Counted from the first letter of the stretch, positions 5,083-36,431 are shown. The stretch: DNA of 64,000 nt from Minisyncoccota bacterium (GCA_965267345.1 OZ253947.1:202814-266813); one strand, 5' to 3'. Notes: generated by a model not told the origin, from the sequence alone. Program-made: numbers and translations.

Positions 5083-6153
5083 TTAGAGTCGGGTGTTGAT
5101 CGTTTCAACCGGCTCAGGGGTTTCTTCAACCGTGAACGTTTCGCGGCCGATCAGTACGCCGCGTGACGTTTCGACGTTGCAGCGCCATGTTCCCGCGGTA
5201 AGGCGGCCGGTTTGTGTGTAGCCGCGGAAGCCCTCATCGCGTCCACCGGCAATACCAAACGGGATACGCGAGACAGTGCGCCATGAGTCGGTGCCCGCCT
5301 CATAGACTTCCCAGCGATGTCGAATATTTGTTTCCAGCCCGGGAGGTGCAAAGACTGAGCTAAAGCAGAACGCATCTGCGCCGGTGCGGTGGTGGAACGT
5401 ACTATTAGTGTCCCGCCAAAATGCGTACCACTCGGGTTCTTCGTACTCTGCCAAGTAGACGCTCCCTTCGCGCGTGACGTGGTGGTAGATACCAATATGT
5501 TTCAGTGCGAGTGGTACCGGCGGAATGGCGTGAATAAAGTAGAGAAACATAAAGACTATGGCAACGGCACCAACCGAGAGCTTCATAGTTTTGAAGCGAA
5601 CGGTAACGTCTTCTGGGGTGACGTACTGTACGAGGGTAATGAGTCCGGCAGCGATCGCCAGCGCAACAGCGACACTACCGAGGAATGTCCATACGCTGAT
5701 ACTCCCGACGATGATCGGCACGACGAGCGCGGCATAGGTGAGCAGCAGGACAAACCAAATGACAACCCGCAGATGTGCTCGTGCGTAGCGATTTTTCAAA
5801 AACTCATTTCCGAGAAAGAGAGCCGCGAGCATACTGAGAAAAATCGCACTACCCACCAATGTACCCGAGCGCGTATACAGGATGAGCAGTGCACTCGCGA
5901 GGTTACCGAAACTGAATTGCAGTACACCTAGTAGCGCAATGCGGTAGTATTCTGTGCGCGCAACGGTACGTGACTGCAATGTAACAACGGCAATAGCACT
6001 GAGTGTGAGGTAGCCGATGATAACGGCGTTTTCAAAGAACGCATCAGGACGATTGAGAGTAAAGATATCAAATACGAGTCCCGCGATGAGGGCGAGTGTT
6101 GGAATAAAGGGCAGGTAGGGTTTGAGATAGTGGGGAAGCGAAATACGCGGCAT
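5083..6153 (-). CDS. Polytopic membrane protein with C-terminal soluble domain, hypothetical
   Basis: 356-aa ORF with about 8 predicted TM helices, then a ~110-aa hydrophilic Trp/Arg-rich C-terminal domain. Confidence 0.6.
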   Translation of the reverse strand: MPRISLPHYLKPYLPFIPTLALIAGLVFDIFTLNRPDAFFENAVIIGYLTLSAIAVVTLQSRTVARTEYYRIALLGVLQFSFGNLASALLILYTRSGTLVGSAIFLSMLAALFLGNEFLKNRYARAHLRVVIWFVLLLTYAALVVPIIVGSISVWTFLGSVAVALAIAAGLITLVQYVTPEDVTVRFKTMKLSVGAVAIVFMFLYFIHAIPPVPLALKHIGIYHHVTREGSVYLAEYEEPEWYAFWRDTNSTFHHRTGADAFCFSSVFAPPGLETNIRHRWEVYEAGTDSWRTVSRIPFGIAGGRDEGFRGYTQTGRLTAGTWRCNVETSRGVLIGRETFTVEETPEPVETINTRL

Positions 6154-23795: not shown

Positions 23796-23833
23796 TGCAA
23801 ATAATTTGCAAATAAAAATTTGCAGGTTATAAT
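23796..23833 (+). promoter_or_regulatory. Promoter with overlapping 7-1-7 palindromic operator TGCAAAT-A-ATTTGCA (Fur-family/Zur-like box)
   Basis: Palindrome at 23796-23810. Its right arm supplies the -35 TTGCAA, then a 16-nt spacer, then a perfect -10 TATAAT at 23828-23833. A third half-site ATTTGCA lies in the spacer. RBS AGGAGAGG precedes the ATG at 23888. Confidence 0.5.
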
Positions 23834-23887
23834 CACGTGTGCAGGCATCACGCTTGCATTCCACACCAGAAATGAGGAGAGGTTGCC

Positions 23888-24145
23888 ATGAGTGCACCCT
23901 GCGGCGGTTGTCCGCCGTGCTGTAATCAATGTCCGTTCTCGGGCAAGGCGGAGGCTCATTCCGGCGGCGCTGTGACGGAGGTCGTTTCATCGAAGGCGTA
24001 CGGATGCGCCAAAGGTGCGCGTTCCGTCGTCATCGATGAGTACGGAACGCTTGGCCTCATGAGCAGTGACGGGTTTCATCCCATCACTGCTGAGGGGTCT
24101 GACTTCCTTCAGAGCACCGGAAATTCGCTTGCTGCTTTCTGCTGA
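23888..24145 (+). CDS. Cys-rich small protein (85 aa), unknown function
   Basis: MSAPCGGCPPCCNQCPFSGK... has 7 Cys in the first 17 residues plus a C-terminal AAFC. It is a stand-alone unit with a strong promoter, an operator and a terminator. Confidence 0.6.
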   Translation: MSAPCGGCPPCCNQCPFSGKAEAHSGGAVTEVVSSKAYGCAKGARSVVIDEYGTLGLMSSDGFHPITAEGSDFLQSTGNSLAAFC

Positions 24146-24169
24146 TCGCAGCGTACGCACATTCTGGTT

Positions 24170-24199
24170 GTCGCCGGACCTCTTGCGAGGTCCGGCGAC
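24170..24199. terminator. Terminator hairpin after Cys-rich gene
   Basis: GTCGCCGGACCTC-TTGC-GAGGTCCGGCGAC followed by TTTACTACTT. Confidence 0.55.
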
Positions 24200-24232
24200 T
24201 TTACTACTTATTCACGCATAATTTGTACATCC

Positions 24233-24577
24233 ATGTTTATTGAGTACCTTATTCTAGTGTCGTTTATAACGACTACTGCCCTTATATGGCGAACTGCGTT
24301 ACTCGACCACCCGCGATTACTCGCGTTTATTGAAAGCATTCCGATTATCGGAGGAGCATTACGATGCGGGTTTTGTTCCGTTTTATGGCTTACTCTTTTA
24401 GGTGTATTGGTGCATAATCCATTTGCAGTATATCTTGTTGAGGTACCGGCCATTATTGAAATTTGGATAGGATGGTTTGTTGTGGGTGCAGGAGTGCTCC
24501 TTTTCCGCAATACTCTTGCAGTCTTGCTGGAGGGCGCAGGAGTCTTAACGCACTTGCATCGGTCACACGAGAAGTAG
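24233..24577 (+). CDS. Small membrane protein with CGFC motif (possibly DUF1360-like)
   Basis: 114 aa, 3-4 TM, LRCGFCSVLW. Confidence 0.5.
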   Translation: MFIEYLILVSFITTTALIWRTALLDHPRLLAFIESIPIIGGALRCGFCSVLWLTLLGVLVHNPFAVYLVEVPAIIEIWIGWFVVGAGVLLFRNTLAVLLEGAGVLTHLHRSHEK

Positions 24578-24643
24578 CCGATGCCTTCCACGTCAGGTTA
24601 TCTACATATGTACCATGACTCGGCAGTGGGAGTTCCAAAAATA

Positions 24644-24835
24644 TCAACGGTAAACTCGGTCCATACAAAAGAAACAACAATGGCAATACCAAGCCCAATC
24701 AGTAGTTGGCGCTATGGCGAAGCCTGTGCTGCTATAAGAAATGCGTACGAAAATAAGGAGAATTGCTGCTGCGACAAAATACAATACAGTCAACCACATC
24801 GCATCGGTAAATTGCATTACAACAAGCGGAATCAA
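24644..24835 (-). CDS. Possible small membrane protein with CHCCFFC motif
   Basis: TTG-start ORF of 63 aa. Weak evidence. Lies between DUF3179 and the CGFC gene. Confidence 0.2.
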   Translation of the reverse strand: MIPLVVMQFTDAMWLTVLYFVAAAILLIFVRISYSSTGFAIAPTTDWAWYCHCCFFCMDRVYR

Positions 24836-24917
24836 TAGCGCAAGTGCCGTGACGGCAACAACGTGGAATACGTTAGAACCTTCGTAAGCGATTTATAGCG
24901 AGTTTCTAACGGGACTA

Positions 24918-25922
24918 TTATTCGATATTCCAAACAACTCCATCATCTTGATGGTGTATTGCCCATGAAAACCACATTTCGTAGTACCCAGGGATAGGTT
25001 CACCATCGGCAGTGACCTCTATACCATCTTCAACTCTTTCTGCTTTGAGTAATACACCATTTGCATCTAACTCTGCCACATCACTCAGTTCATCATCAGC
25101 AAACGCGTAGGAGTTACCCCCAAATGGCACGACATACATTATTTTTTTTGCTGGGTAGCGCTTGTCAGAAACCGAAACGGGGAAATATAGCTCATCAGTG
25201 AGGCCATACCCTGAATACGGCTCGATATCATATGATCGGCTGAAACCAGTATCTCTGCTCAAAACACGAGCATCTGGGTGGAGCTCTTTGAGTTTTTCGA
25301 ACTCAAGGAGTTTCATGTCGATAAGGGAAAGTTTTGTTCCGGTGTATTCACCAACTACGGCCTCGTTTTTTGCCTGTGACCAAAGCGACTCCGTTTTCGT
25401 ATCGTACATGAGCAAATTGGATTCCCACAGGAGACCGCTTACGCCAAACCTAAGCACATCGCCGTTCACCTGGCGATCAAAAACGATGGCGCTGCCACAC
25501 AGTGGGCAAAAAGTAACGGCAAAATGCGTATCATTGATAGAGTCGTTCACTATCTCATGCCAGACAAGAATATTATACGGGTAGTATCGCTTTTCGCCCC
25601 CAATAGTAACGAGCACACCCAATACATCGTCACCGACGTCGACGGATTCGACAGACTCAAATTTCGGCGCGTTGATCGCGGGGATGCCATCTTTACCTGG
25701 TCCGCCTGATAGGATCTCATCCAGCGCGATACTCTTTTTTGCGGTATTTGTCTCAAGACCGAACGAAGACAGTGCTGCTTTGGCATCCTTTTGATCAGTG
25801 TGCGCAAGTGTTGGCGTCGTGTTGACACCCGTATAGCTAGTATATAGCGCCCATACGGCGGCAATCACTAACGCCAGGATTCCCACTCCGCCCCATGCGC
25901 GTTTGGAAATTTTAAGAAACAT
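24918..25922 (-). CDS. DUF3179-family protein, membrane-anchored
   Basis: YYPYNILVWHEIVND, VTFCPLCGSAIVF and ESNLLMYD. Start MFLKISKRAW. Preceded by -10 TATACT, 6 nt, ATG. Confidence 0.75.
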   Translation of the reverse strand: MFLKISKRAWGGVGILALVIAAVWALYTSYTGVNTTPTLAHTDQKDAKAALSSFGLETNTAKKSIALDEILSGGPGKDGIPAINAPKFESVESVDVGDDVLGVLVTIGGEKRYYPYNILVWHEIVNDSINDTHFAVTFCPLCGSAIVFDRQVNGDVLRFGVSGLLWESNLLMYDTKTESLWSQAKNEAVVGEYTGTKLSLIDMKLLEFEKLKELHPDARVLSRDTGFSRSYDIEPYSGYGLTDELYFPVSVSDKRYPAKKIMYVVPFGGNSYAFADDELSDVAELDANGVLLKAERVEDGIEVTADGEPIPGYYEMWFSWAIHHQDDGVVWNIE

Positions 25923-25969
25923 GTGTCGAGTATAGCACATGCGGCATATGTGTGCGTATCATACACAAC

Positions 25970-26734
25970 CTACTGGCATTCTGGGTCTTGGTCCAGAGCG
26001 TTTGTGGTGTTCCGCCAGCTTTCTGCCGTATTCCCATGTGCCGGAATACCGTTGGCGCTTTTCAGTAGTGCCGCCATGTGCATCAGGTTCCATGCCATAA
26101 ATGTTGCGTGCTTGTTGGTGAATTCATTGTCGTAGCCAATGGGTGTTTCGCTATCGTCAATCGGCATGCCGCCCCACATGGTATCACCGTAACTTGGACC
26201 AGGTCCCACTTCACCGAGCCACGCAGCGTCTGCTTGCGGCGGTATCGTATATCCGATGTGCGAGAGTGCATACAAAATGTCCATAGCGCAGTGCTTTGCA
26301 CCGTCTTCGTTCCCGGTCACAACACACCCACCTACTTTCCCATAGTAGATGTATTGACCTTTTGCATTCTGGTCGCCGCTATAGGCGTACATTCGCTCAA
26401 TGACGTGTGTCGCAACACTCGACTTTACACCGAGCCAAATAGGTGTGCCAATGACAAGAATATCGGCTCTGTCGATTTTTTGCTGTATCACTGGCCAGTC
26501 ATCTTTTTGCTGCGGGTCTTCTACATCTCCATCTTTAATCATACCGAATGCAATCGTGTGATCGAGGGCATATAGTTGTTCAACAAAAATGCCCTCCTGA
26601 CGCATGATACCCGCTACACGATTCAAAAGGCGCTGGGTATGTGATTTGGCAGCATCTTTTTTTATGGAACAATTGATAAAAAGAGCCGTGAGTTCAGAGT
26701 ACTTTTGTGCAGCTGAGGTTTTTTTGAGTTCCAT
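25970..26734 (-). CDS. Flavodoxin-like fold NAD(P)H-dependent FMN reductase
   Basis: MELKK...LTALFINCSIKKD...ADILVIGTPIWLG pattern. Start at the internal ATG 26734. Confidence 0.75.
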   Translation of the reverse strand: MELKKTSAAQKYSELTALFINCSIKKDAAKSHTQRLLNRVAGIMRQEGIFVEQLYALDHTIAFGMIKDGDVEDPQQKDDWPVIQQKIDRADILVIGTPIWLGVKSSVATHVIERMYAYSGDQNAKGQYIYYGKVGGCVVTGNEDGAKHCAMDILYALSHIGYTIPPQADAAWLGEVGPGPSYGDTMWGGMPIDDSETPIGYDNEFTNKHATFMAWNLMHMAALLKSANGIPAHGNTAESWRNTTNALDQDPECQ

Positions 26735-26912
26735 AGTGTTATTTTTATGTTTTCCAGTACGAAAGCACATACTAACATCAAGACTAACTGTCGCAATTAT
26801 TGCCAGCACCAAACTACTGGTTATATGTGGAAAGAGAATAAGAATATATGTTTTCGCGTAAAAATTTGTTACACTGAGCGGGTAGTATTGTTAAGTAAGG
26901 TTCAAAACTACT

Positions 26913-27158
26913 ATGGAACATACAAACAAAGAGCAGAGTATCAGAGAATATGAGGCTAAAATTCAAGAATTGGAATCCAAAGCAAATGCTCTGGGTGATT
27001 CTGCTAAAGCAGAGATTGAGGAGTTAAAGTCAGAAGCGCAAAATGTAATAGGCAAGTGGCAGGATGCTGCTGAGGAAGAATGGGAGGATATGCGAACGGA
27101 AGCAGATGCAGCCGTAACTGCTCTGCAGAATAAAGTGTCGGAATATACCAGAAACTAG
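26913..27158 (+). CDS. Small coiled-coil protein, hypothetical
   Basis: 81 aa, E/K/A-rich heptad pattern. A weak hairpin terminator follows at about 27200-27230. Confidence 0.45.
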   Translation: MEHTNKEQSIREYEAKIQELESKANALGDSAKAEIEELKSEAQNVIGKWQDAAEEEWEDMRTEADAAVTALQNKVSEYTRN

Positions 27159-27383
27159 GGAGAACTCTGATAGGGCTCCTTCAAAAGTAACAACACCCGC
27201 AGGCGAGGGTGTTTTTACTTTTTCGTGAATTAAAAAATGCAAGTTGTACCACTGGCGCGCTCCTCCTGTTGTATGCATTCAGAACTGGTAGTTGGAGAAA
27301 AGTACAGGAGGATCTTATGAGAGTCTCTTTCGTGTAGCAGAAGGACATCTTTACAAATGTATGGATACATATACAATACGTAA

Positions 27384-27398
27384 TGCAAACAATTTGCA
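27384..27398 (+). promoter_or_regulatory. Second copy of 7-1-7 palindrome (TGCAAAC-A-ATTTGCA) upstream of znuA: putative Zur box
   Basis: One mismatch to a perfect palindrome. It overlaps a candidate -35 (TTTGCA), with 17 nt to TATAAC at 27416-27421, about 115 nt upstream of the znuA ATG. Confidence 0.45.
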
Positions 27399-27511
27399 TT
27401 TATGCACAAAGCATTTATAACGATCGGAAGTTGTTTGGTGCGTTTGGTTTGCTCGCGAAAAGGTGTGTAAAATTCTAATTATTTAATAGGCACATAGATA
27501 AAAATTGACGT

Positions 27512-28507
27512 ATGCAAAAAATTATTATTGGAGTAGTGGCTTTAGCACTGGTTGTTGGAGGAGGCCTCCTCCTGGCTAATGGTAATGGAACTGAACGACC
27601 ACTAGAAAACAAAGTAGGCGCCACTATTTTTCCGGTCTACGACATAGCGCGACAAATTGCAGGGGAGGAGTTTGAGGTAGTGCTGTTATTGCCTGCCGGA
27701 GCCTCACCGCATACCTTTGATCCGCAACCAAGTGTGGTGCGGGGTCTTGAAGGTGCGCGAGCAGTGTTTGCTATTGGCCATGGTTTGGACCAATGGTCTA
27801 AAAATTTGACAGATTCTCTTGATATTCCTCGTGTTGTTGTTGACGGTCATATTGAACTTAGGGAATCGCATCATGAGGAACACGGAGACGGACACAATGA
27901 CCACGGACATAACGATGATACACATGAGGACGGGCACCATGACCACACAGATGAGCATGAGGAGCATGAAGAAGGTGACCATGGACACGAGCACGGACCA
28001 ATTGATCCACACTACTGGCTTTCTCTTGAGAATGGGGCTCATATTGCAGAGAACATTGCCGAAGAACTCGGGAGGTTGGATAGTGAGAACAAAGCACTAT
28101 ATCAAGCACGCGCAGAAGCTTACGGCGCTGAGCTTGACTCGTTGCGCGATGAGTTGCGAGACGACCTTTCACCACTTGGCAATCGAAACATCATCTCACT
28201 TCACGATGCGTGGTTTTATTTTGCAGACGCGTTTAACTTGAGCATTGTTGGAACGTTTGCGCCGTCTGCGGGAAAGGAACCCACACCCCAGTACCTAGAG
28301 CGGTTACAAGAGGAAGTTCTTGAACAAGGGGTTCAGGTTATCTTCATCGAACCTCAGTTATCAACAGACTCTATTCGAGCTTTCGCAAATGATAACGCGC
28401 TTGACATCGCAGTACTTGATCCTCTTGGAGGAGTTGAGGGGCGACAAAGTTATATCGATCTGATGCGCTATAACGTAGAGCAAGTGGTATCAGCCCTCAA
28501 AGAGTAG
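27512..28507 (+). CDS. znuA: Zinc ABC transporter substrate-binding protein with His-rich loop
   Basis: TroA/ZnuA fold motifs ATIFPVYDIA, GASPHTFDP and DPHYW, plus a His/Asp/Glu-rich insert (HHEEHGDGHNDHGHNDDTHEDGHHDH...). N-terminal membrane anchor. Confidence 0.9.
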   Translation: MQKIIIGVVALALVVGGGLLLANGNGTERPLENKVGATIFPVYDIARQIAGEEFEVVLLLPAGASPHTFDPQPSVVRGLEGARAVFAIGHGLDQWSKNLTDSLDIPRVVVDGHIELRESHHEEHGDGHNDHGHNDDTHEDGHHDHTDEHEEHEEGDHGHEHGPIDPHYWLSLENGAHIAENIAEELGRLDSENKALYQARAEAYGAELDSLRDELRDDLSPLGNRNIISLHDAWFYFADAFNLSIVGTFAPSAGKEPTPQYLERLQEEVLEQGVQVIFIEPQLSTDSIRAFANDNALDIAVLDPLGGVEGRQSYIDLMRYNVEQVVSALKE

Positions 28508-28508
28508 A

Positions 28509-29222
28509 ATGAGTGAGACCATTATACAGCTTGATGATGTCTCCTTTGGCTATAGTAAGCGCGGTTTTATCGTAGAAGGGATTTCATTTGAGATCCCAGA
28601 GGGCTCGACGACCATGCTTATTGGTCCAAATGGTTCTGGAAAAACAACAGTGCTTAGGTTGATGGTTGGCTTGCTAAAGCCCGAAAAGGGAGTGGTGCAG
28701 GTTTTAGGGGGCACACCAAAAGCACAGCGTGCACAAATCGGGTATGTGCCGCAACGTCTTGATTTCGACAGAACATTCCCATTTACTGTTTTAGAATTTT
28801 TGCGATACTCTCATCGCGAAACTCACGCCGAAGAAATACTTGCCCTGCTGGAGAAACTCGGCGTACGCAAGCTTTCAGATGCTTTGATTGGGAATTTGTC
28901 GGGAGGTGAATTGCAGCGGGTGCTCATAGCCCGCGCGCTGTTGTCAGATCCGAAAGTCCTGTACCTCGATGAACCAATCAGTGGGATTGATGTTGGCGGC
29001 GAAAGAAATTTCTATGACCTGATCGCTGAAATTAAGCGCGAACGCAATATTACGATCGTAATGGTTTCGCATGAGCTACATGTGGTGAGCAAAATAGCAA
29101 CTCAGGTTATCTGTATCAATCGGAAAATGTGCTGCAGCGGTGAGCCAAGTACGGTACTCGTTCCAGAAGTACTGGAGGAAATGTATGGTAGAGAAGTGTC
29201 GGTGTACCACCACAACGTATGA
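28509..29222 (+). CDS. znuC: Zinc ABC transporter ATP-binding protein
   Basis: GPNGSGKTT, LSGGELQRV and LYLDEP. Confidence 0.9.
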   Translation: MSETIIQLDDVSFGYSKRGFIVEGISFEIPEGSTTMLIGPNGSGKTTVLRLMVGLLKPEKGVVQVLGGTPKAQRAQIGYVPQRLDFDRTFPFTVLEFLRYSHRETHAEEILALLEKLGVRKLSDALIGNLSGGELQRVLIARALLSDPKVLYLDEPISGIDVGGERNFYDLIAEIKRERNITIVMVSHELHVVSKIATQVICINRKMCCSGEPSTVLVPEVLEEMYGREVSVYHHNV

Positions 29223-30034
29223 TTGATATTTTCCAGTTAGAATTTATGCAACGAGCGTTTATTGCAGGACTGGCGCTTGCACCACTGCTGTCTGTGCTTG
29301 GTGCCTTTGCGACGCTGCGAAAGATGTCCTTTTTTTCTGAAGGAGTAGCGCATGCCTCCTTGCTCGGGGTAGCGTTAGCAATCATAGCCGGTGTAGTGCC
29401 TTTTTATGGTGCACTTGTGATCGGACTAGTTCTCGGGGTAGTGATATTCATCCTAGAGCGTTATACAAAAATAGCCTCAGATGCAACTATCGGTATTATT
29501 TTTACGACCGGAATGGCGCTTGGAATCTTACTCATTTCGCTAGAGCCAGGATATCAGCCCGACCTCATTAGTTTTCTGTTCGGGAACATTCTTGCTGTGA
29601 GCTGGGGTGATGTATGGACGATAGTTGTGTTGTCGTCCGTAATACTTTTCTCTGTCTATCTGTTCTATAAACAGTTAGCATTATTGGCATTTTCTGAGGA
29701 AATTGCGTGGACGTCTGGATCAAACACCACGTCTTTGAATCTGCTTTTCTACGCCCTGCTTTCATTAGCAACAGTGCTTGGGGTGAAGCTACTGGGGATC
29801 ATCCTTGTGAGTGCCCTTTTAATTGCTCCAGCTGTTTCCTCAAGAGTTCTCACGACTTCTTTTAATTCGTATGTATTTCTCTCGGTACTATTTTCAGTTG
29901 TTTCCTTTGTCGTTGGACTTCTTTCTTCCTACTATCTCGACATACCGTCAGGGGCTTCAATTGTTCTTACTGCGACGCTCCTTTTCGGCTTAGTTCTTTT
30001 GATTAAGCCGTTCACACAACGATTGCCACACTGA
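29219..30034 (+). CDS. znuB: Zinc ABC transporter permease (ABC-3 family)
   Basis: 8-TM ABC-3 permease that overlaps znuC by 4 nt. Confidence 0.9.
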   Translation: MIDIFQLEFMQRAFIAGLALAPLLSVLGAFATLRKMSFFSEGVAHASLLGVALAIIAGVVPFYGALVIGLVLGVVIFILERYTKIASDATIGIIFTTGMALGILLISLEPGYQPDLISFLFGNILAVSWGDVWTIVVLSSVILFSVYLFYKQLALLAFSEEIAWTSGSNTTSLNLLFYALLSLATVLGVKLLGIILVSALLIAPAVSSRVLTTSFNSYVFLSVLFSVVSFVVGLLSSYYLDIPSGASIVLTATLLFGLVLLIKPFTQRLPH

Positions 30035-30168
30035 TCAAAAAAGTACTTAAATTAAAATGAGACTGGAACTGGACTGGCTCGCGTGGAAGGACGCTTTTCG
30101 AACATACAGATGGCAGGACGTTTTTTCAGAACCTCAAAATACCATTGAGCAGATAAGCGACTTAGTTG

Positions 30169-30552
30169 CTATTGCTCAATAACGGCCTTTAGTTTTTCTA
30201 GCACCTCTTGAGTGAACGGATTTTCTAATTCTCCTTGGTCTACCCACTCAAAATACTCCATCTCAGTTTTATTATCGTTGAGCGATTTGTAGGTATATCG
30301 CACATTGTAGTTTTTATCAGATTTCTGAAGAGTGAAGATTTTGTCTTTTTCGTATTCAGTTACGTAGTAAGTATCCCAAACTCCACTTTCGTCACAGTTC
30401 CTGTATTCCGTCCCTATTTTTGTGGGGCTAGTATCTCGCTGTTCTTCAATCAGTCCATCAATCCAAAGAGGTGTGTTGTTAGGGTTGGTGGTGAATTCAA
30501 AAACTTCGGAAATTGGCCTATCTATTTTTGTTGAAACTTTGTTTTCTTTCAT
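30169..30552 (-). CDS. SRPBCC (Bet v1/polyketide-cyclase-like) protein
   Basis: 127 aa. MKENKVSTKIDRPISEVFEFTTNPNNTPLWIDG... is a typical SRPBCC N-terminus. Confidence 0.6.
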   Translation of the reverse strand: MKENKVSTKIDRPISEVFEFTTNPNNTPLWIDGLIEEQRDTSPTKIGTEYRNCDESGVWDTYYVTEYEKDKIFTLQKSDKNYNVRYTYKSLNDNKTEMEYFEWVDQGELENPFTQEVLEKLKAVIEQ

Positions 30553-31055
30553 ACATTTTTCTGATCAGCAAATCTGCCTTTTTCATGTTTTATCTCGGGA
30601 GCAAGAGGGTTTTTATTTCTTTCTTGCATTGATTGAGGAACTTGATCATAAGGGACGAGATGTACCCCTAAAGAAACAAGAGATTGTCTAATGTTCTCAA
30701 TCTTTTCTTCTTTTAGTGTAGGAACTTCAGAATAAGAGACGAGTTCGCCCTCTAACTTTTCAGGGCTTTCTTCGAAATATGAGCCATCTAGTTCATAAAG
30801 AAATCCTGCGTTGTTGAGTAAAGCTAGCTTGCCCTCCTGAAGTTTATCTACATACATTTCACCATTGTCAGAAAAAGAGACAGCTAGTTCGTCACCTGTT
30901 CCGTAGATCATGGCGATTGCGTATCTTTTGTCAGCAGTAGCAAAAACTACCCCTCTCCCATCTACTGCCTTGTGTGGAGTTGGTTTGAAGGTTTGAATGT
31001 TGCCAACCCTTGATCCATGATATACGTTCATACTATGAATTTTATCAAAACCCAT
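30549..31055 (-). CDS. Hypothetical protein (168 aa), island cargo
   Basis: No homology recognised (MNVYHGSRVGNIQTFKP...GRGVVFATADKRYAIAMIYG). Overlaps the SRPBCC gene by 4 nt. Confidence 0.5.
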   Translation of the reverse strand: MGFDKIHSMNVYHGSRVGNIQTFKPTPHKAVDGRGVVFATADKRYAIAMIYGTGDELAVSFSDNGEMYVDKLQEGKLALLNNAGFLYELDGSYFEESPEKLEGELVSYSEVPTLKEEKIENIRQSLVSLGVHLVPYDQVPQSMQERNKNPLAPEIKHEKGRFADQKNV

Positions 31056-31169
31056 AACTCAAAGCACGTTTTCTCAAAAGTCGCAGTAATCCTTTGTTGC
31101 TATAATGTATACAGCGCACAGGTAGTAGTCGCGCTTTGTGACGCTCGTTAGAAGTAATTGATATTGCGT

Positions 31170-31385
31170 ATGGCACACATAAAAGGAAATCGTGATGGTA
31201 AGGGCGGTAGAAACGAAACCTACCAAATTGGTTCACGAAAAAAAGTTGCTCGTAAGACAGCCGTAAAAGAGGTCAAACAAGGAAAGCACCCTGACGCACA
31301 TGTCTACAAGAGAGGAAGACAGGAATATGTTCGAGACAATCCTGACTACTCGAAGAAGGACAATGTAAACAGGAAAAAGAGGTAA
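31170..31385 (+). CDS. Small basic protein, hypothetical
   Basis: 71 aa, K/R/G-rich, contains a KGG motif. Weak evidence. Confidence 0.3.
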   Translation: MAHIKGNRDGKGGRNETYQIGSRKKVARKTAVKEVKQGKHPDAHVYKRGRQEYVRDNPDYSKKDNVNRKKR

Positions 31386-31495
31386 ATGGAAAAGTTACTG
31401 GCTTAGATAGAGCTTGCTTGAAAAGAGATAAGATTGAGTTGCGGTCATTTTGAAACAGCGATCGAAAAGTAACACCTCCCAAAGAAAAGTCCCAT

Positions 31496-31684
31496 CTATT
31501 GTTGGGACTTTTCTTTTTTCTTAGCTCTTTTTCGATCAATCCACGAAGCCCCTAAAAAGAGGGTTAGGATCAACAATGGCGGAAAAAGTATCCCAATGAC
31601 CAAACTGCCCCAAAAGTTCTTTTTCAACTCTTTATCAGACATTCTCCTTGGCTTGAACCAAGAAGTTTTTTCTTCTTTATTCAT
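31496..31684 (-). CDS. Small membrane protein, hypothetical
   Basis: Start MNKEEKTSWFKPRR. One TM (GSLVIGILFPPLLILTLFLGASW) and a K-rich tail. Confidence 0.35.
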   Translation of the reverse strand: MNKEEKTSWFKPRRMSDKELKKNFWGSLVIGILFPPLLILTLFLGASWIDRKRAKKKEKSQQ

Positions 31685-31918
31685 ATTGTTCGCGTAGGTT
31701 TTACTTGTAATGATTGTGAGCAGGCAACAGAAAAGGCCACACAACTCACACCGATAGCTCCTTTCAGAACTACCCGACACCCTTTCGGGTGAAGACCTAC
31801 GCGAATAAGTGGCGGTTTATGTGGCCGTCTCTATTCGCGTAGGATTTATGTCACCATGCCTTCAGAAATCTGAAGGGTTAGGTTTGTAAATACATTATAT
31901 CAAATCTCGCCCCCACCT

Positions 31919-33010
31919 CTAGCTCGTAGAATTCTGCTCCTGCCTTACAAAAAACTGTACGGCATGTGGGTTATGCAGATGAACTAAGTATGTTTTTACT
32001 GACCTCTTCTTTCCTCGTACAAAAATTTTTCCAGAAAATCTGTATTGCTTCTTTGTAATAAGATCTTCGTGTTCAGCATGTACAGCCCTACATACCTTGT
32101 TCATAAAACTCCAATTTTTGATTTTGGCACTACCAATTACGTAGATGTTCTCACATGCTTCATGTATTGACCCTCTAATTCTTGAGGCATGAAGTTCAAC
32201 ATCGTTACGATCTCGAGTAGCTTTTGAAGCAACAATTTTTATCGTACATCGTGTATATTTTCCCCTGAATGTCTCTTCTACTGATGTGTCTCCAACTTCT
32301 CTCTGAGAAAAGTTTTCGAGAAATTTGATCAGGTCATTCACTTCTACTATGATCTCTTGGTTTGGCTTTTCAAGAAAAACCTTAGAACCTAATGTTGAAA
32401 GCTCCTGTACTAAAATTGGGAAAAACACACCCAATTCTTGTATTTTTTCAAATTGCTTGATGAGTAATCTCAGATCGTCATCTTGGGTAAGGTTAGGAAC
32501 AATATAGTCGTTCATAAATTGTTCGAGCGCTGAAGGGTATTCGTCTTTCAGGATTTGTTGTGTTGCGTAAAGATCCAAAGATTTCTTTTGTTTCTTTGAA
32601 AGATGTCTCTTCGATCTGTTTAGTAAAGTTTCAGAGGTGAAAATATAGGTAGCATGTACGAAATTCTTTGTTTTATGTTTTCTGTCACGCATAACGACTA
32701 TGACTTCATCCTCATCCCACACCAAACCCTCGTCTTCCTCATTTCCAATCCAGTGTACTTTTACTCTTGGGAAAGATGTAGTAGTGTTTGTCTCGACAGA
32801 TCTAACAAATGAATTTACCCGACCTTCAATGTCATTCTTTATTGCAAGGTATTCTGCTTTCTTCCAAAATAAACTGACAAATTCCCAGAACATTGCTAAC
32901 CACTTTTTTACTTTGTCAGGATTTTTGAAAATGACATAGACAACAATAAGGGTCAGTACTACCCCCGCGGAAAAACTAGATAAAAGTTGTACAATACCTT
33001 GTTCAATCAT
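31919..33010 (-). CDS. Membrane-anchored 363-aa protein of unknown function (island cargo)
   Basis: N-terminal TM (IVQLLSSFSAGVVLTLIVVYVIF), then a ~330-aa cytoplasmic K/E-rich domain. Translationally coupled (ATGA overlap) to the upstream zinc-ribbon gene. Confidence 0.6.
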   Translation of the reverse strand: MIEQGIVQLLSSFSAGVVLTLIVVYVIFKNPDKVKKWLAMFWEFVSLFWKKAEYLAIKNDIEGRVNSFVRSVETNTTTSFPRVKVHWIGNEEDEGLVWDEDEVIVVMRDRKHKTKNFVHATYIFTSETLLNRSKRHLSKKQKKSLDLYATQQILKDEYPSALEQFMNDYIVPNLTQDDDLRLLIKQFEKIQELGVFFPILVQELSTLGSKVFLEKPNQEIIVEVNDLIKFLENFSQREVGDTSVEETFRGKYTRCTIKIVASKATRDRNDVELHASRIRGSIHEACENIYVIGSAKIKNWSFMNKVCRAVHAEHEDLITKKQYRFSGKIFVRGKKRSVKTYLVHLHNPHAVQFFVRQEQNSTS

Positions 33011-33270
33011 AGCTTTTTCTTTCTTTCATCAAGGTATTCTGTTAGTGAAGTGATACACTCGGGATCATCACAAATCATATTTATTGCCCCAGATTGAGGC
33101 AAAATTGAGTACAAATTTTCATTCGTTATTTGTTTGCCACAGAACTTACAATTTTTCTTGCCAGAGTCAAAATCCTCTTTTGCCCCCATTTTGCCAAGAA
33201 GTGTATCTAGGTCTCTTTCGTGTACAGTGTTCAATTTTCTTTTATCGGTTTCGTCCATAAAGTTTTCCAC
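33007..33270 (-). CDS. Small zinc-ribbon protein (87 aa), first gene of two-gene operon
   Basis: CKFCGKQ, 22 aa, ICDDPEC. Acidic N-terminus. Confidence 0.55.
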   Translation of the reverse strand: MENFMDETDKRKLNTVHERDLDTLLGKMGAKEDFDSGKKNCKFCGKQITNENLYSILPQSGAINMICDDPECITSLTEYLDERKKKL

Positions 33271-33597
33271 ACCTTTCTGTTTACAAATGTGTGTTGATAC
33301 AATCCATTATACCCCTAAAACAAAGGATTTCATACTGCTAGCAGGATACTTGTCTCACTCTATTTAGCTTTATTGTAACGTTGTTTATCTGTTATAATAG
33401 ATACACAATCGAATATGGTTTAGTTTTTGAGGGCTTTATGCCATTCCGCTGACCTATCAAATAAATCAGCGAGCAAACTTTTTTGAATTCCGAAAATTGA
33501 ACACTCAACTATCTTTGGATTTTTGGTGTTTAGCTTTCGGGATTTTCTTATTGAAGCAATCGTCCAGGTCCAAGATCTTGGTCGATTGTTTTGTTTT

Positions 33598-33783
33598 ATG
33601 GCAAGCACAGAACTTACAAAAGAGTTTCAGCAAGTCCTCTACAAAGAAATTGGGTTGGAACTTGATGATAAAGAAGCAAGCAAGATACTTTCTAATCTTG
33701 TGAGCTACTTTGATTTGCTTGCTCTATTGCACCACAGAGATCAAGTCAACGTCTCTGAAAACTCATACTCAAGAGGTAATTAG
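33598..33783 (+). CDS. Small hypothetical protein
   Basis: 61 aa from MASTELTKEF. A 17-24-nt stretch of its coding sequence is repeated just past its stop, in a direct repeat at 33629-33653 and 33782-33805. Confidence 0.3.
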   Translation: MASTELTKEFQQVLYKEIGLELDDKEASKILSNLVSYFDLLALLHHRDQVNVSENSYSRGN

Positions 33784-33997
33784 CAAGTCCTCTACAAAAA
33801 ACTGGCTAAACACCACATTGGTGTGCATATGACAGTTCCCTGCACTGAGTGACAACTTCTCAACAGGGAGACCTCATATGCACATCAATCACTGGAACTT
33901 GGTTGAAGTTTCTGGCGCGAGGGATGAAAAAGTCGAGAAACGACAAAAGAGTTATGAGAAATACATTACAAGCTAAATCCTATGAGGGATAAAGAAG

Positions 33998-34240
33998 TTG
34001 TTCATTATGAAAAAGTATACAAAAGAAGAAAAGTTGGCTCGCAAACAACTGAGGGTCAATGCAAATAAATATAAGGATAATTTACCCAGAGAAACCGTCT
34101 TGGTGCGAATAGATAAAAATTGGCACAAGGCACTCAAGATCTATGCTGTTGAGCAAGAGATGACAATGTCTCGGATCATAGATAGTTTCTGTGAACATTA
34201 TCTGGGTACTGAGAGGTACAAAGAAGTATGCAAAAAGTAA
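33998..34240 (+). CDS. Ribbon-helix-helix (CopG/Arc-like) DNA-binding protein
   Basis: TVLVRIDKNWHKALKIYAVEQEMTMSRIIDSF fits the beta-strand then helix RHH pattern. Confidence 0.5.
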   Translation: MFIMKKYTKEEKLARKQLRVNANKYKDNLPRETVLVRIDKNWHKALKIYAVEQEMTMSRIIDSFCEHYLGTERYKEVCKK

Positions 34241-34674
34241 CTCCAAACAACACCAATAAAAAGGTTGTATCTAAGCTACGCCATGAAGACGAATTTGCTT
34301 CGTTTGTTGTTTGGGTTGCAACACCAAAAGAGCTTCGAGACCCAAAAACACAGGCAGAGTTAGCTCAGAAGTTTGGAGTTGGGCAAGACACGCTTTCTGA
34401 CTGGAAGAAAAGAGATGGGTTCTATGAAAAGGTCGCGAAAGTGAGAAAGTCGTGGGGTCGAGACAGAACTCCTGATGTCATTCATGCACTTTACAGGAAC
34501 ATTATGAAAACAGGGTCAGTGCAAGGTGTAAAGCTATGGCTTCAGTATTTTGAAGATTGGATGGAGAAAACAAACAGCTATGACCCCGCGAATGATCCGA
34601 TACGGCAGTTGTCGGATAAGGAGCTGATGGCTGAGATACGCAAAGCACAAAACTTCTTTCGTAAGAAGGACTGA
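34228..34674 (+). CDS. HTH DNA-binding protein (possible recombination directionality factor or regulator)
   Basis: TQAELAQKFGVGQDTLSDWKKRDGF is a helix-turn-helix. It overlaps the RHH gene and sits immediately upstream of the recombinase. Confidence 0.55.
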   Translation: MQKVTPNNTNKKVVSKLRHEDEFASFVVWVATPKELRDPKTQAELAQKFGVGQDTLSDWKKRDGFYEKVAKVRKSWGRDRTPDVIHALYRNIMKTGSVQGVKLWLQYFEDWMEKTNSYDPANDPIRQLSDKELMAEIRKAQNFFRKKD

Positions 34675-34707
34675 TAAATTATCAATAAATAAACTATAAT
34701 TATATTT

Positions 34708-36285
34708 ATGAAGGCCGTAGTTTATGCACGAGTATCCTCAAAACCCCAACAAGACACAGGGTATTCTTTGCCTGCACAAAGAAAACTGGCAAACGAATAT
34801 GCAGACAGGAAGAGTATCGATATCGCAAAGATTTTTTCTATCGCTGAAAGCGCTAGTGGAAAACGGGAACGACAGGTTTTTGCAGAGATGATTGAGTACA
34901 TGAAAAAACATGACATCAACAATCTTTTATGTGAAAAGGTTGACCGATTGACACGAAACCTAAAAGAGGCCGTTACAATAAATGAATGGCTTGAGCAAGA
35001 CAAAAGACGTCAAGTACATTTTGTAAAACAGAACCTAGTTATCCATCAAAATTCAAAGTCGGATGAGAAATTTCGCTGGGATATTGAAATTGTTTTGGCA
35101 AAGAAATTCATTGCCAACCTGTCAGAGGAAGTGAAGAAAGGTCAGCGTGCAAAAATTGAAGCAGGTTGGCTACCAACAAAGCCACCTTTGGGATATAAGA
35201 CCATTGGAGAAAAGGGGCACAAAATTCATGTTGTAGATGAAGATGTCGCACCTTTTATCAAAAAGATGTTTGAACTGTACGATACAGGAAACTACTCAAC
35301 TCGAGAACTAGGTAGAAAAATGTTTGAGCTAGGATTACGAAATAGGAACAGTCGTGAAGTTGGAAAAAGTAGGATTTACGATCTTCTATCTGATCCTTTC
35401 TATTATGGAGATATGAGGTGGAATGGCGAAATCTACAGAGGTAAGCAAGAACCACTGATATCAAAGGAGTTGTTTCAGTCAGTACAAAGTAAGTTGAACA
35501 GAAAAATGAGTAGCCCTTACTTCAGCAAGCACAATCCTGTGTATAAGGGAAAGATCAATTGTGGTGAGTGTGGACGAAGAGTTAGTTGGGAAAAACAGAA
35601 AGGTACTTGGTATGGAGGGTGTAAAAACTGCAAAGCGCAGTTAGGAAGCAAAAAATATATTAGGCAAGATGAGGTAGACAAAGAGATAATGCAAAAGATC
35701 CTAGAGATTGCACCCAAGAATGACAAAATACTTTCGATACTTGAACGCGCATTGAAGGAAGATCATCAAAAGGAAATTGATCTCCATAAAGCTCAAAAAA
35801 CGGAGCTAGAAAGGTCTTTGAACCAAATAGATAGAAAGATGGCTCTAATGTACGATGATCGGCTCTCAGAGCGAATTACCCCTGAAGTGTATGACACCAA
35901 CTTCAAGATACTCAAAGATCAAGAGCGTGACCTTTTGCGACAACAAAAACGTCTTCAGGAAGACAAAAGTGCTTATTATGAAGCAGGTTATTCAATACAC
36001 CTCCTTGCGTCTAAGGCAAAAGATATTTATGCAAGCAAAAAAGTCACCACCGAAGAGAGGAGATTGCTTTTGAATTACGTATTTTCGAACTTGTCCATAA
36101 AGCAAGGAAAACTAACACCAGAATACACAGAAGCATTCAAATTCATGCAGGAATGGACACCACGCCTAAATGCGAGTTTCGAACTTCAAAAAAGTGTTGT
36201 GAACAAAGGGCTAAATATCACTTTTAGCATACCTCGTCCTGTCTTGCTCCGCGGGCAGGATTCGAACCTACGACCTACCGGTTAA
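34708..36285 (+). CDS. Large serine recombinase (resolvase/invertase N-domain + recombinase domain + zinc ribbon + coiled coil)
   Basis: AVVYARVSSKPQQ holds the catalytic Ser. DRLTRN, a recombinase domain, a CGECGRR...CKNC zinc ribbon and a C-terminal coiled coil. The last ~13 codons read through the tRNA-Asn sequence. Confidence 0.9.
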   Translation: MKAVVYARVSSKPQQDTGYSLPAQRKLANEYADRKSIDIAKIFSIAESASGKRERQVFAEMIEYMKKHDINNLLCEKVDRLTRNLKEAVTINEWLEQDKRRQVHFVKQNLVIHQNSKSDEKFRWDIEIVLAKKFIANLSEEVKKGQRAKIEAGWLPTKPPLGYKTIGEKGHKIHVVDEDVAPFIKKMFELYDTGNYSTRELGRKMFELGLRNRNSREVGKSRIYDLLSDPFYYGDMRWNGEIYRGKQEPLISKELFQSVQSKLNRKMSSPYFSKHNPVYKGKINCGECGRRVSWEKQKGTWYGGCKNCKAQLGSKKYIRQDEVDKEIMQKILEIAPKNDKILSILERALKEDHQKEIDLHKAQKTELERSLNQIDRKMALMYDDRLSERITPEVYDTNFKILKDQERDLLRQQKRLQEDKSAYYEAGYSIHLLASKAKDIYASKKVTTEERRLLLNYVFSNLSIKQGKLTPEYTEAFKFMQEWTPRLNASFELQKSVVNKGLNITFSIPRPVLLRGQDSNLRPTG

Positions 36286-36318
36286 CAGCCGGTTGCTCTA
36301 CCGCTGAGCTACCGCGGA
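36247..36318 (-). tRNA. tRNA-Asn (anticodon GTT)
   Basis: The reverse complement reads TCCGCGGTAGCTCAGCGGTAGAGCAACCGGCTGTTAACCGGTAGGTCGTAGGTTCGAATCCTGCCCGCGGAG. It forms a cloverleaf with a 7-bp acceptor stem, T-loop GGTTCGAATCC and anticodon loop CTGTTAA. CCA is not encoded. Confidence 0.85.
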
Positions 36319-36431
36319 ATGTGTTTCGCGCGGTATGCTCAGCGAGCTGAGCCCTGCCTGCCGGCAGGTACCGCGGAATACTGTTCAAAACGAACTGTCG
36401 TATTGTACACAACGGGGGTGCATTTTCAACG

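What the first reader, a model, noticed from the sequence alone, without database searches (positions are those of the whole stretch)
23796..27398. Shared Fur-family-style 7-1-7 palindrome TGCAAA(T/C)-A-ATTTGCA upstream of znuABC and of a Cys-rich small-protein gene: putative Zur regulon
The two copies are 23796-23810 (TGCAAAT-A-ATTTGCA, perfect) and 27384-27398 (TGCAAAC-A-ATTTGCA, one mismatch). Each overlaps the -35 of a plausible sigma70 promoter. One promoter drives the zinc uptake operon znuABC, which is the canonical Zur target. The other drives a stand-alone gene for an 85-aa protein with 7 Cys in its first 17 residues. The 7-1-7 geometry matches Fur/Zur/PerR boxes, but the half-site GCAAAT differs from the B. 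subtilis Zur box (CGTAAT) and the Fur box (GATAAT). This may be a lineage-specific Zur motif. No Fur-family regulator gene lies in the window.
Basis: partly seen in the sequence, partly recalled or inferred. Interest (0 to 1): 0.7.

Follow-up and report, generated by a model that had tools for sequence, protein, structure and literature searches.

The report
Zur-type zinc operator pair in a CPR genome
Two near-identical 15-bp palindromes are very probably binding sites for a zinc-sensing Fur-family repressor (Zur) that shuts off a zinc importer and a conserved, uncharacterised cysteine-rich small protein; it is an ordinary kind of switch, here defined for little-studied Patescibacteria.

Summary
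TGCAAATAATTTGCA (23796-23810) and TGCAAACAATTTGCA (27384-27398) are the only strong copies in 64 kb. Both lie 17 nt upstream of a -10-like hexamer, so the right half-site doubles as the -35.

The Zur reading is well supported by comparison:
- In 80 Patescibacteria-type znuA loci the motif is about 100-fold enriched in the 650 bp upstream of znuA.
- 48 of those loci carry a Fur-family gene within about 0.7 kb upstream of znuA.
- A matrix built only from those foreign sites scores the window sites 30.2 and 28.3 bits. The next best window hit scores 11.4.

The 85-aa protein is not an orphan. It belongs to an unannotated family (CX2CX3CX2C knuckle plus invariant YGC). In other genomes it sits beside a Fur-family gene, znuA, ZIP or CDF transporters, or YibE/F, with the same class of box upstream. 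A small CxxC membrane protein usually follows it, as here at 24233-24577.

Corrections: there are 5 Cys in the first 15 residues, 7 in total. The box is closest to the actinobacterial Zur box.

Still open: the regulator gene lies outside the window, zinc-dependent binding is untested, and the small protein's function is unknown.

The parts
23796..23810 (.). Box 1: perfect 7-1-7 palindrome TGCAAAT-A-ATTTGCA, the putative Zur operator of the Cys-rich protein gene
   Evidence: It scores 30.2 bits with a matrix built only from other genomes' znuA-upstream sites.
23806..23833 (+). Sigma-70-like promoter: -35 TTGCAA (23806-23811, inside the right half-site), 16-nt spacer, -10 TATAAT (23828-23833)
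   Evidence: Consensus scan, 10 of 12 matches. The box-to--10 distance is the same as at site 2. No transcription start data exist.
23818..23824 (.). Extra half-site ATTTGCA, 3 nt upstream of the -10. With 23807-23813 it forms a 7-4-7 arrangement.
   Evidence: Read directly. Relatives often have a box ending 0-2 nt before the -10.
23888..24145 (+). Gene for an 85-aa Cys-rich protein (CX2CX3CX2C knuckle at C5/C8/C12/C15, invariant Y38-G39-C40), with a strong Shine-Dalgarno sequence GAGGAGAGG upstream
   Evidence: ORF. Family of 31 representatives at E<=1e-3. Alignment and Cys conservation. AF2 model with pLDDT 80.9. No Pfam or NCBIfam match.
24170..24199 (+). 13-bp G+C-rich hairpin followed by a U-rich tail: terminator or attenuator between the small gene and its partner
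   Evidence: -30.9 kcal/mol, z = -5.5, and none of 200 shuffles folds as well.
24233..24577 (+). Gene for a 114-aa membrane protein with a conserved CGFC motif, the conserved downstream partner of the small gene
   Evidence: 30-34% identity to the gene that follows the small gene in L081 and L087. Also found after it in L088, L090, L091, L095, L096 and L109.
27384..27398 (.). Box 2: TGCAAAC-A-ATTTGCA, the putative Zur operator of znuABC
   Evidence: It scores 28.3 bits with the foreign-site matrix.
27394..27421 (+). Candidate promoter: -35 TTGCAT (27394-27399), 16-nt spacer, -10 TATAAC (27416-27421). An alternative promoter, TTTACA 27350-27355 and TACAAT 27372-27377, would place the box at about +1.
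   Evidence: Read. Geometry is aligned with site 1.
27512..28507 (+). znuA: zinc-type substrate-binding protein with a His/Asp/Glu-rich loop
   Evidence: PF01297 at 3.9e-69. Best solved-structure relatives are Zn-specific ZnuA, 1PQ4 at 2e-35 and 2OGW/2OSV. The third-ligand His in SLHDAWFYF aligns with the ZnuA His.
28509..29222 (+). znuC: ABC ATPase
   Evidence: PF00005 at 1.2e-29.
29219..30034 (+). znuB: ABC-3 permease
   Evidence: PF00950 at 2.7e-69.

Best explanation
The two palindromes are operators for one dimeric Fur-family metalloregulator of the Zur type, encoded outside this window. When zinc is sufficient, Zn-loaded Zur binds each box. Because the right half-site is itself the -35 hexamer, RNA polymerase is excluded. 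This represses (i) znuABC and (ii) the Cys-rich small-protein gene, and probably by read-through its CxxC membrane partner. When zinc is scarce, Zur leaves the DNA and both units are expressed.

Shown here:
- the sites, their shared promoter geometry and their uniqueness in the window;
- conservation of the box upstream of znuA or zur-znuA across Patescibacteria;
- linkage of the small-protein family to Fur-family genes, zinc transporters and the same class of box.

Inferred:
- binding by Zur, zinc as the signal, and repression rather than activation;
- that the small protein binds metal through its Cys knuckle and serves zinc handling during zinc limitation, for example as a chaperone or relay together with the membrane partner.
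For: 1. Association with znuA. In 80 species-level loci encoding ZnuA relatives, the window's motif (<=2 of 14 mismatches) occurs 31 times in the 650 bp upstream of znuA, or 0.61 per kb. It occurs 7 times in the other 1.1 Mb, or 0.0064 per kb. At >=16 bits there are 34 hits upstream of znuA in 32 loci against 1 elsewhere.

2. Link to a Fur-family gene. 48 of the 80 loci have a Fur-family gene within about 0.7 kb upstream of znuA, co-directional or divergent, with the box ahead of it or between the two genes (tblastn, HMM).

3. Independent scoring. A matrix built from those foreign sites picks out exactly the two window sites.

4. Geometry. At both window sites the box ends 17 nt before the -10. 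In relatives the box either abuts the -10 (13 of 34) or lies 17-18 nt upstream of it (4 of 34). Both arrangements overlap the core promoter, as is typical for Zur (PMC6103462).

5. Small-protein family. Its homologues are found in these arrangements:
- divergent from FUR+YibE_F (L081, L087), from a FUR operon whose second gene has no Pfam match (L088), from FUR alone (L090), and from FUR + ferredoxin + reductase (L091);
- divergent from FUR+ZIP (the P0123 contig, L095);
- in L096, as YibEF<-znuBC<-znuA<-FUR <-> glutaredoxin->Cys->partner;
- in L109, as YibEF->Cys->partner->FUR->ZIP;
- co-directional Cys->FUR (L098/L099, L107/L108);
- next to ZIP+CDF (L093).
Sources.

6. Boxes upstream of the small gene. 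A generic TGC...GCA 7-1-7 box occurs 8 times in 3.6 kb upstream of the small gene and 4 times in 113.6 kb elsewhere. All 4 of the 'elsewhere' hits lie 35-55 nt upstream of a P-loop NTPase gene that heads the same operon.

7. Zinc specificity of ZnuA. It has a His-rich loop and a His at the third ligand position, and its best matches among solved structures are Zn-specific ZnuA proteins.

8. Similarity to a known Zur box. The box fits the actinobacterial consensus taaTGaNAANNNTTNtCANta, including the flanks, except at position 3 and its mirror position 13.
Against: - No Fur-family gene lies in the 64-kb window. Unlike most relatives, neither unit here has an adjacent regulator. The rest of the genome could not be fetched.
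- Sequence models cannot subtype the relatives' regulators. Their best NCBIfam matches are PerR or Fur rather than Zur, and all fall far below the curated cut-offs.
- Some neighbours of the small gene are not obviously zinc-related: Nramp in L088, ferredoxin plus reductase in L091, and YibE/F, whose substrate is unknown.
- Only about 40% of the znuA loci carry a box at >=16 bits.
- No transcription start sites and no binding or expression data exist.
- A Cys-rich, presumably metal-binding protein induced under zinc shortage is not the classic zinc-sparing logic, so its role is uncertain.
Confidence: 0.8

Rival explanations
1. The boxes are bound by a Fur-family protein that senses something other than zinc, such as Fe or Mn (Fur/Mur type) or peroxide (PerR type). 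The transporter would then import another metal.
For: The relatives' regulators score best against PerR and Fur models in NCBIfam. Neighbours include Nramp (L088) and ferredoxin plus ferredoxin reductase (L091). ABC-3/ZnuA-family systems also include Mn and Fe importers (one search lists PsaA, MtsA and YfeA further down).
Against: All NCBIfam scores are far below the cut-offs, so the ranking carries no information. ZnuA has the His-rich loop and a third-ligand His, and its top solved-structure matches are Zn-specific. ZIP and CDF transporters recur next to the regulator and small gene. Separate PerR-like paralogues exist in L026 and L074, away from znuA, and branch apart from the znuA-linked genes.
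Confidence: 0.1
2. The palindromes are recognised by an unrelated dimeric helix-turn-helix regulator (ArsR/SmtB, MarR/AdcR, TetR and so on). The proximity of a Fur-family gene in relatives would be coincidental.
For: No regulator is encoded next to either site in this window. Palindromes with TG...CA ends are used by many families.
Against: A Fur-family gene is the recurrent neighbour in 48 of 80 znuA loci and in most small-gene loci, with the box in autoregulatory position. No other regulator family recurs in those loci (gene tables). The 7-1-7 form and the sequence match known Zur boxes.
Confidence: 0.05
3. The similarity is chance or purely promoter-structural: an A+T-rich -35 region that happens to be palindromic, with no regulator.
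For: Both sites overlap -35-like hexamers, and the search at <=3 mismatches is not enriched over shuffles.
Against: The expected number of a second <=1-mismatch copy is about 0.005. Foreign-trained matrix scores of 30 and 28 bits exceed the shuffled maximum of 18.8. The box is about 100-fold enriched upstream of orthologous genes in other species.
Confidence: 0.02

Closest known systems
Actinobacterial-type Zur box (S. coelicolor tGaNNatSatNNtCa; 21-bp actinobacterial consensus taaTGaNAANNNTTNtCANta; PMC5472717)
   Same: Both are 15-bp 7-1-7 palindromes with TG...CA ends and an A/T-rich interior. Both have taa...tta flanks. Both lie upstream of znuA and overlap the core promoter, and some promoters carry two boxes.
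   Different: Position 3 is mostly C, and its mirror position 13 mostly G (82% in the collected sites), where the actinobacterial box has A and T. A minority of Patescibacteria sites keep A or T. Lineage variants such as TGCGAAT, TGCGACT and TGCCAGT occur. No binding data exist for this box.
Canonical Zur-znuABC repression (E. coli, B. subtilis; review PMC6103462)
   Same: A Fur-family repressor, an operator overlapping the -35, a ZnuABC importer as the core target, and autoregulated zur-znuABC operons in many relatives.
   Different: In this genome zur is not adjacent to either target. No ribosomal-protein paralogue, COG0523 or folE2 target is seen in the window. The second target is an unannotated Cys-rich protein.
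Zur-regulated metallochaperones of the COG0523 family (ZagA, ZigA, YeiR)
   Same: Possible functional analogy for the small-protein cassette. It is under Zur control and linked to zinc transporters. In some lineages it is co-operonic with a SIMIBI-class P-loop NTPase (MinD/ParA/CooC-like).
   Different: There is no homology. The 85-aa protein has no NTPase domain and no CobW Pfam match. The linked NTPase is absent from this window. The analogy is an inference only.
Bacterial metallothioneins (SmtA/BmtA), Zur-activated in Synechococcus WH8102 (PMC9337993)
   Same: A small Cys-containing protein under Zur control, and plausibly a thiolate ligand for Zn.
   Different: Only 7 of 85 residues are Cys. 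The protein has a predicted folded beta-rich domain plus two helices and conserved aromatic residues. The box overlaps the -35, which implies repression rather than the activation reported for bmtA.

Membership tests
Zur box / Zur regulon operator | Palindromic (7-1-7 type) A/T-rich site with TG...CA ends resembling known Zur boxes | tested here: met
   It fits taaTGaNAANNNTTNtCANta (PMC5472717) except at position 3 and its mirror position 13.
Zur box / Zur regulon operator | Site overlaps the core promoter of a zinc-uptake operon | tested here: met
   The box ends 17 nt before a -10-like hexamer at both sites. The promoters are consensus matches only; no transcription start sites are mapped.
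Zur box / Zur regulon operator | Site conserved upstream of orthologous zinc-uptake genes in related genomes | tested here: met
   31 near hits against 7 far hits, about 100-fold enrichment per kb. 34 against 1 at >=16 bits, in 32 of 80 loci.
Zur box / Zur regulon operator | A Fur-family regulator is encoded in the genome, often next to the target and autoregulated | not testable with these tools
   Met in relatives: 48 of 80 znuA loci and most small-gene loci. In this genome none lies in the window, and the remaining roughly 580 kb could not be retrieved.
Zur box / Zur regulon operator | Zn-dependent binding of Zur and derepression under zinc limitation | not testable with these tools
   This needs EMSA, DAP-seq or expression data.
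Zur subfamily of Fur proteins (relatives' regulators) | Sequence assignment to a curated Zur model | tested here: inconclusive
   In NCBIfam all Fur, PerR and Zur equivalog scores are far below the cut-offs. In a neighbour-joining tree the regulators linked to the small gene fall among those linked to znuA, apart from the PerR-like paralogues, but the branches are deep.
Zinc-specific cluster A-I substrate-binding protein (ZnuA) | PF01297 fold, a His/acidic-rich loop, and His rather than Glu at the third metal-ligand position | tested here: met
   The loop is HHEEHGDGHNDHGHNDDTHEDGHHDHTDEHEEHEEGDHGHEHG.
Metallothionein | Very high Cys content throughout, few or no aromatic residues, no independent fold | tested here: not met
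   8% Cys, clustered at residues 5-15. Conserved Y38, F63 and F73. AF2 predicts a folded domain with pLDDT 80.9.
Zinc-independent ribosomal-protein paralogue or COG0523 (classic Zur targets) | Pfam or NCBIfam membership of the second target | tested here: not met

The most novel reading that the evidence does not exclude
The 85-aa Cys-knuckle protein and its CxxC membrane partner form a previously undescribed zinc-handling module of Patescibacteria that has co-evolved with Zur. It could be a cytoplasmic Zn chaperone or relay that works with a membrane component. In some lineages it would also work with a CooC/MinD-like NTPase or a glutaredoxin. It would fill the role that COG0523 chaperones play elsewhere. 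Alternatively, it could be a partner that modulates Zur itself.
Probability: 0.35. Interest if true: 0.65.

Novelty: new member of a known kind. Interest (0 to 1): 0.45.

Why it matters
Patescibacteria (CPR) are mostly uncultured, have tiny genomes and few regulators. In the held literature I found no paper that mentions the Candidate Phyla Radiation together with the Fur family, and none of the 10 listed hits for Patescibacteria, Zur and zinc looked relevant. This finding gives three things.

- A concrete operator model, roughly (t/c)aa(t/a)TGCAAATNATTTGCA(a/t)tt(a/g), that can be used to reconstruct zinc regulons across the group.
- Evidence that the classic Zur logic is retained in these reduced genomes.
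- An unannotated, conserved small Cys-rich protein with a membrane partner as a candidate new player in zinc homeostasis. Both are small enough to test easily in vitro.

The regulatory principle itself is textbook, so the advance is incremental unless the small-protein module proves mechanistically new.

Tried and rejected
- **Word-indexed protein search.** It returned only the query itself for the small protein, which suggested an orphan. The exhaustive HMMER search overturned this with 31 hits.
- **Exact look-ups of window proteins.** These aimed to fetch the rest of the genome or a taxon name and failed. The window's genome was not among the GTDB representatives returned. Whole-genome motif scanning and a search for the genome's own zur were therefore impossible.
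- **Structure searches.** Searches with the AF2 model gave nothing significant, and the afdb50 library was unavailable.
- **NCBIfam subtyping of the Fur-family relatives.** Uninformative.
- **Hits to giant proteins.** The small protein matched P0138, P0141 and P0152. These are Ig-, cadherin- or PKD-type repeat proteins, and I judged the hits compositional.
- **Shared origin of the two upstream regions.** Apart from the box and the -10, the two regions do not align. Short exact repeats between the znuA leader and the island (D13, D14, D17, D18) dissolve on alignment and were rejected as chance.
- **att-type direct repeat.** I looked for one bounding the low-GC island at tRNA-Asn and found none of 14 nt or longer.
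- **Literature search on YibE.** It returned only author names.
- **First metagenome scan.** It was redone with 9 close sequences.


Full report
**1. The observation**

TGCAAATAATTTGCA lies at 23796-23810 and is a perfect 7-1-7 palindrome. TGCAAACAATTTGCA lies at 27384-27398 and has one mismatch. The only other match in the 64-kb window at up to 3 mismatches is a single 3-mismatch hit.

Both sites lie in intergenic DNA upstream of + strand genes.
- At site 1 the scanner finds TTGCAA (23806), a 16-nt spacer and TATAAT (23828-23833).
- Aligning the two regions shows the same geometry at site 2. In both, the box ends 17 nt before the -10-like hexamer (TATAAT or TATAAC 27416-21), so the right half-site is the -35.
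- Site 2 also has an upstream alternative promoter, TTTACA 27350 and TACAAT 27377, which would put the box at about +1. Either arrangement occludes RNA polymerase.
- Site 1 has a third half-site, ATTTGCA, at 23818-23824, 3 nt before the -10.

**2. The genes**

Downstream of site 2:
- znuA, 27512-28507 (PF01297, 3.9e-69);
- znuC, 28509-29222;
- znuB, 29219-30034.

ZnuA carries a long His/Asp/Glu loop. Its best matches among solved structures are zinc-specific ZnuA proteins (1PQ4 at 2e-35, 2OGW, 2OSV). The His of SLHDAWFYF aligns with the third zinc ligand.

Downstream of site 1:
- A strong Shine-Dalgarno sequence and an 85-aa ORF, 23888-24145. Its Cys residues are at 5, 8, 11, 12, 15, 40 and 85.
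- A 13-bp G+C hairpin at 24170-24199 (-30.9 kcal/mol, z = -5.5).
- A 114-aa membrane-protein gene at 24233-24577.

No Fur-family gene is in the window (Pfam).

**3. Provenance**

Window proteins come from a single 644,490-bp NCBI/ENA contig. The nearest ZnuA relatives are 50-62% identical. Where a source names them, the names are mostly Patescibacteria. I infer a CPR/Patescibacteria genome. A taxon name could not be retrieved.

**4. Is the box a conserved regulatory site?**

I aligned 33 ZnuA relatives and fetched 80 species-level genome loci.
- The window's motif (<=2 mismatches in the 14 specified positions) occurs 31 times in the 650 bp upstream of znuA, or 0.61 per kb. It occurs 7 times in the other 1.1 Mb, or 0.0064 per kb.
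- 48 of the 80 loci encode a Fur-family protein within about 0.7 kb upstream of znuA. It is either co-directional (box, then zur, then znuA) or divergent with the box in between (tblastn, HMM).
- The collected sites give (t/c)aa(t/a)TGCAAATNATTTGCA(a/t)tt(a/g), with some A at position 3.
- A 21-nt matrix from these foreign sites scores the window sites 30.2 and 28.3 bits. The third-best window hit scores 11.4. Shuffled windows average a maximum of 9.4, with a highest value of 18.8.
- In the 80 loci the matrix at >=16 bits hits 34 times upstream of znuA, in 32 loci, and once elsewhere.
- In relatives the box either abuts the -10 (13 of 34) or lies 17-18 nt upstream of it as here (4 of 34).

These are the standard hallmarks of a Zur box. 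The review PMC6103462 notes that Zur boxes often overlap the -35 and that some promoters carry two boxes. The sequence fits the actinobacterial consensus taaTGaNAANNNTTNtCANta and the S. coelicolor motif tGaNNatSatNNtCa (PMC5472717) except for C at position 3 and G at its mirror position 13.

**5. The second target**

The word-indexed search found only the query itself. An exhaustive HMMER search of 1.84 billion representatives found 31 relatives at E<=1e-3 and 13 at E<=1e-10. Most are 83-106 aa long.

The alignment shows P-C-G-G-C-P-P-C-C-x-x-C-V-F at the N-terminus, an invariant Y-G-C, and the motifs LGLLR, FHPVT and FLRxxGNPLA. Conservation of the Cys positions:

| Position | Conserved in |
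|---|---|
| C5 | 22 of 24 |
| C8 | 23 of 24 |
| C12 | 24 of 24 |
| C15 | 24 of 24 |
| C40 | 28 of 28 |
| C11 | variable |
| C85 | variable |

The core is therefore a CX2CX3CX2C knuckle plus Cys40. AlphaFold2 gives a confident small beta-rich domain with two C-terminal helices (pLDDT 80.9). It has no significant structural neighbour and no Pfam or NCBIfam family.

Genomic contexts are telling:

| Locus | Arrangement |
|---|---|
| L081, L087 | divergent from a FUR+YibE_F operon |
| L088 | divergent from a FUR operon whose second gene has no Pfam match |
| L090 | divergent from FUR alone |
| L091 | divergent from FUR + ferredoxin + reductase |
| P0123 contig, L095 | divergent from FUR+ZIP |
| L096 | YibEF<-znuB/C<-znuA<-FUR <-> glutaredoxin->Cys gene->membrane partner |
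| L109 | YibEF->Cys->partner->FUR->ZIP |
| L098/99, L107/108 | Cys->FUR, co-directional |
| L093 | next to ZIP and a CDF exporter |

The membrane partner follows the small gene in the window and in L081, L087, L088, L090, L091, L095, L096 and L109.

Boxes of the same class precede the unit:
- L081: TGCGAATAATTCGCA
- L087: TGCGAATTACTTGCA and TGCAATATTTTTGCA
- L088: TGCCAGTAACTGGCA, plus a second box
- L090: TGCGACTTAGTCGCA, plus a second box
- L094: TGCAAAATATTTGCA
- L095: TGCAAAGTACTTGCA
- L109: TGCAAATAACTTGCA

I then applied a generic definition: TGC...GCA with at most 1 inner mismatch. It gives 8 hits in the 3.6 kb upstream of the small gene and 4 in the remaining 113.6 kb. All four 'elsewhere' hits sit 35-55 nt upstream of a 277-284-aa MinD/ParA/CooC-like P-loop NTPase gene that heads the operon NTPase->Cys gene(->fur). 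The small gene is thus a conserved member of the regulon of the same Fur-family regulator that controls znuABC and ZIP.

**6. Which regulator?**

NCBIfam cannot subtype these divergent Fur-family proteins. All scores are far below the cut-offs. A neighbour-joining tree places the regulators linked to the small gene among those linked to znuA and apart from the PerR-like second paralogues, although the branches are deep. The Zur assignment therefore rests on the regulated genes: zinc-type ZnuA, ZIP and CDF. I put 0.8 on a Zur-type repressor and 0.1 on a Fur-family sensor of another signal. The remainder goes to an unrelated regulator or chance.

**7. Mechanism**

The steps below are inferred unless marked as shown.
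- Zn-Zur dimers bind each box. Shown: the sites.
- Binding masks the -35, and at site 1 also the half-site next to the -10. Shown: the geometry.
- Zinc limitation releases Zur and induces both the importer and the small-protein cassette.
- The hairpin after the small gene would set a high ratio of small protein to membrane partner.
- The function of the cassette is unknown. The Cys knuckle, the CxxC partner, and the recurrent company of zinc transporters, a glutaredoxin or a CooC-like NTPase point to metal (zinc) trafficking rather than zinc sparing. I hold this at roughly one chance in three.

**8. Novelty**

In the held literature I found no paper that mentions the Candidate Phyla Radiation together with the Fur family, and none of the 10 listed hits for Patescibacteria, Zur and zinc looked relevant. 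The regulatory principle is nonetheless classical. I file the finding as a new member of a known kind. It has one element that is new as far as these searches show: an unannotated small-protein family with a membrane partner, tied to Zur.

**9. Limits**

The genome's own regulator was not seen. Promoters are consensus matches. The matrix was seeded from the window's motif, but the comparison of near and far regions in other genomes is independent of that choice. Only about 40% of related znuA loci carry a recognisable box.

Noticed in passing
window 30000-36320: A low-GC stretch (0.35-0.42, against 0.52-0.58 in the flanks). It ends at a large serine recombinase gene (34708-36285; Resolvase + Recombinase + Zn_ribbon_recom) that abuts tRNA-Asn (36246-36318, minus strand). 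An HTH protein gene lies at 34228-34674. It looks like an integrated mobile element at tRNA-Asn. No att direct repeat of 14 nt or more was found. znuABC (GC 0.45-0.50) lies just to its left.
   Followed up: partly
window 31753-31884 (-): Rfam match to LOOT RNA (RF03000), 73.5 bits against a gathering score of 46.4, full length, inside the low-GC element.
   Followed up: no
L004, L007, L009, L017, L026, L028, L029, L034, L035, L038, L040, L041, L052, L053, L059; also L081, L087, L095, L096, L109: YibE/F-family membrane proteins (PF07907, substrate unknown) are encoded next to zur-znuABC in 15 of 80 loci, and next to the Fur/Cys-protein cassette in several others. They are a candidate additional member of the Patescibacteria zinc regulon. 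None is present in the window.
   Followed up: partly
L099 128-970; L101 2757-3590; L105 4061-4915; L107 4040-4876: A 277-284-aa MinD/ParA/CooC-like P-loop NTPase (deviant Walker A GKGGSGKS, conserved HCSHS motif) with a Zur-type box 35-55 nt upstream. It heads an operon with the Cys-rich small gene, and with fur in some lineages. It is a possible metallochaperone NTPase and is absent from the window.
   Followed up: partly
window 41731-43245 (+): Fusion of an XRE-type HTH domain (HTH_3) to an EPSP-synthase-family (MurA-like) enzyme in one 504-aa ORF.
   Followed up: no
window 24918-26812 (-): A DUF3179 protein (340 aa) and an FMN_red/flavodoxin-like protein (280 aa) lie between the two boxes on the opposite strand. 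No box is associated with them.
   Followed up: no
window 6924-11063 (+) and 1688-2095 (+): A 1379-aa ORF with no significant Pfam domain, and a bacterial SET-domain protein of 135 aa (PF00856, 1.2e-22).
   Followed up: no
L096 4705-4986: A glutaredoxin gene precedes the Cys-rich small gene in the operon that is divergent from zur-znuACB-yibEF. This hints that the thiol redox state of the small protein matters.
   Followed up: no
window 5083-6153 (-) and L088 6526-7653: DUF2914 proteins occur both in the window (18 kb from site 1) and about 2 kb from the Fur/Cys cassette in L088, next to an Nramp gene. This is possibly coincidental.
   Followed up: no
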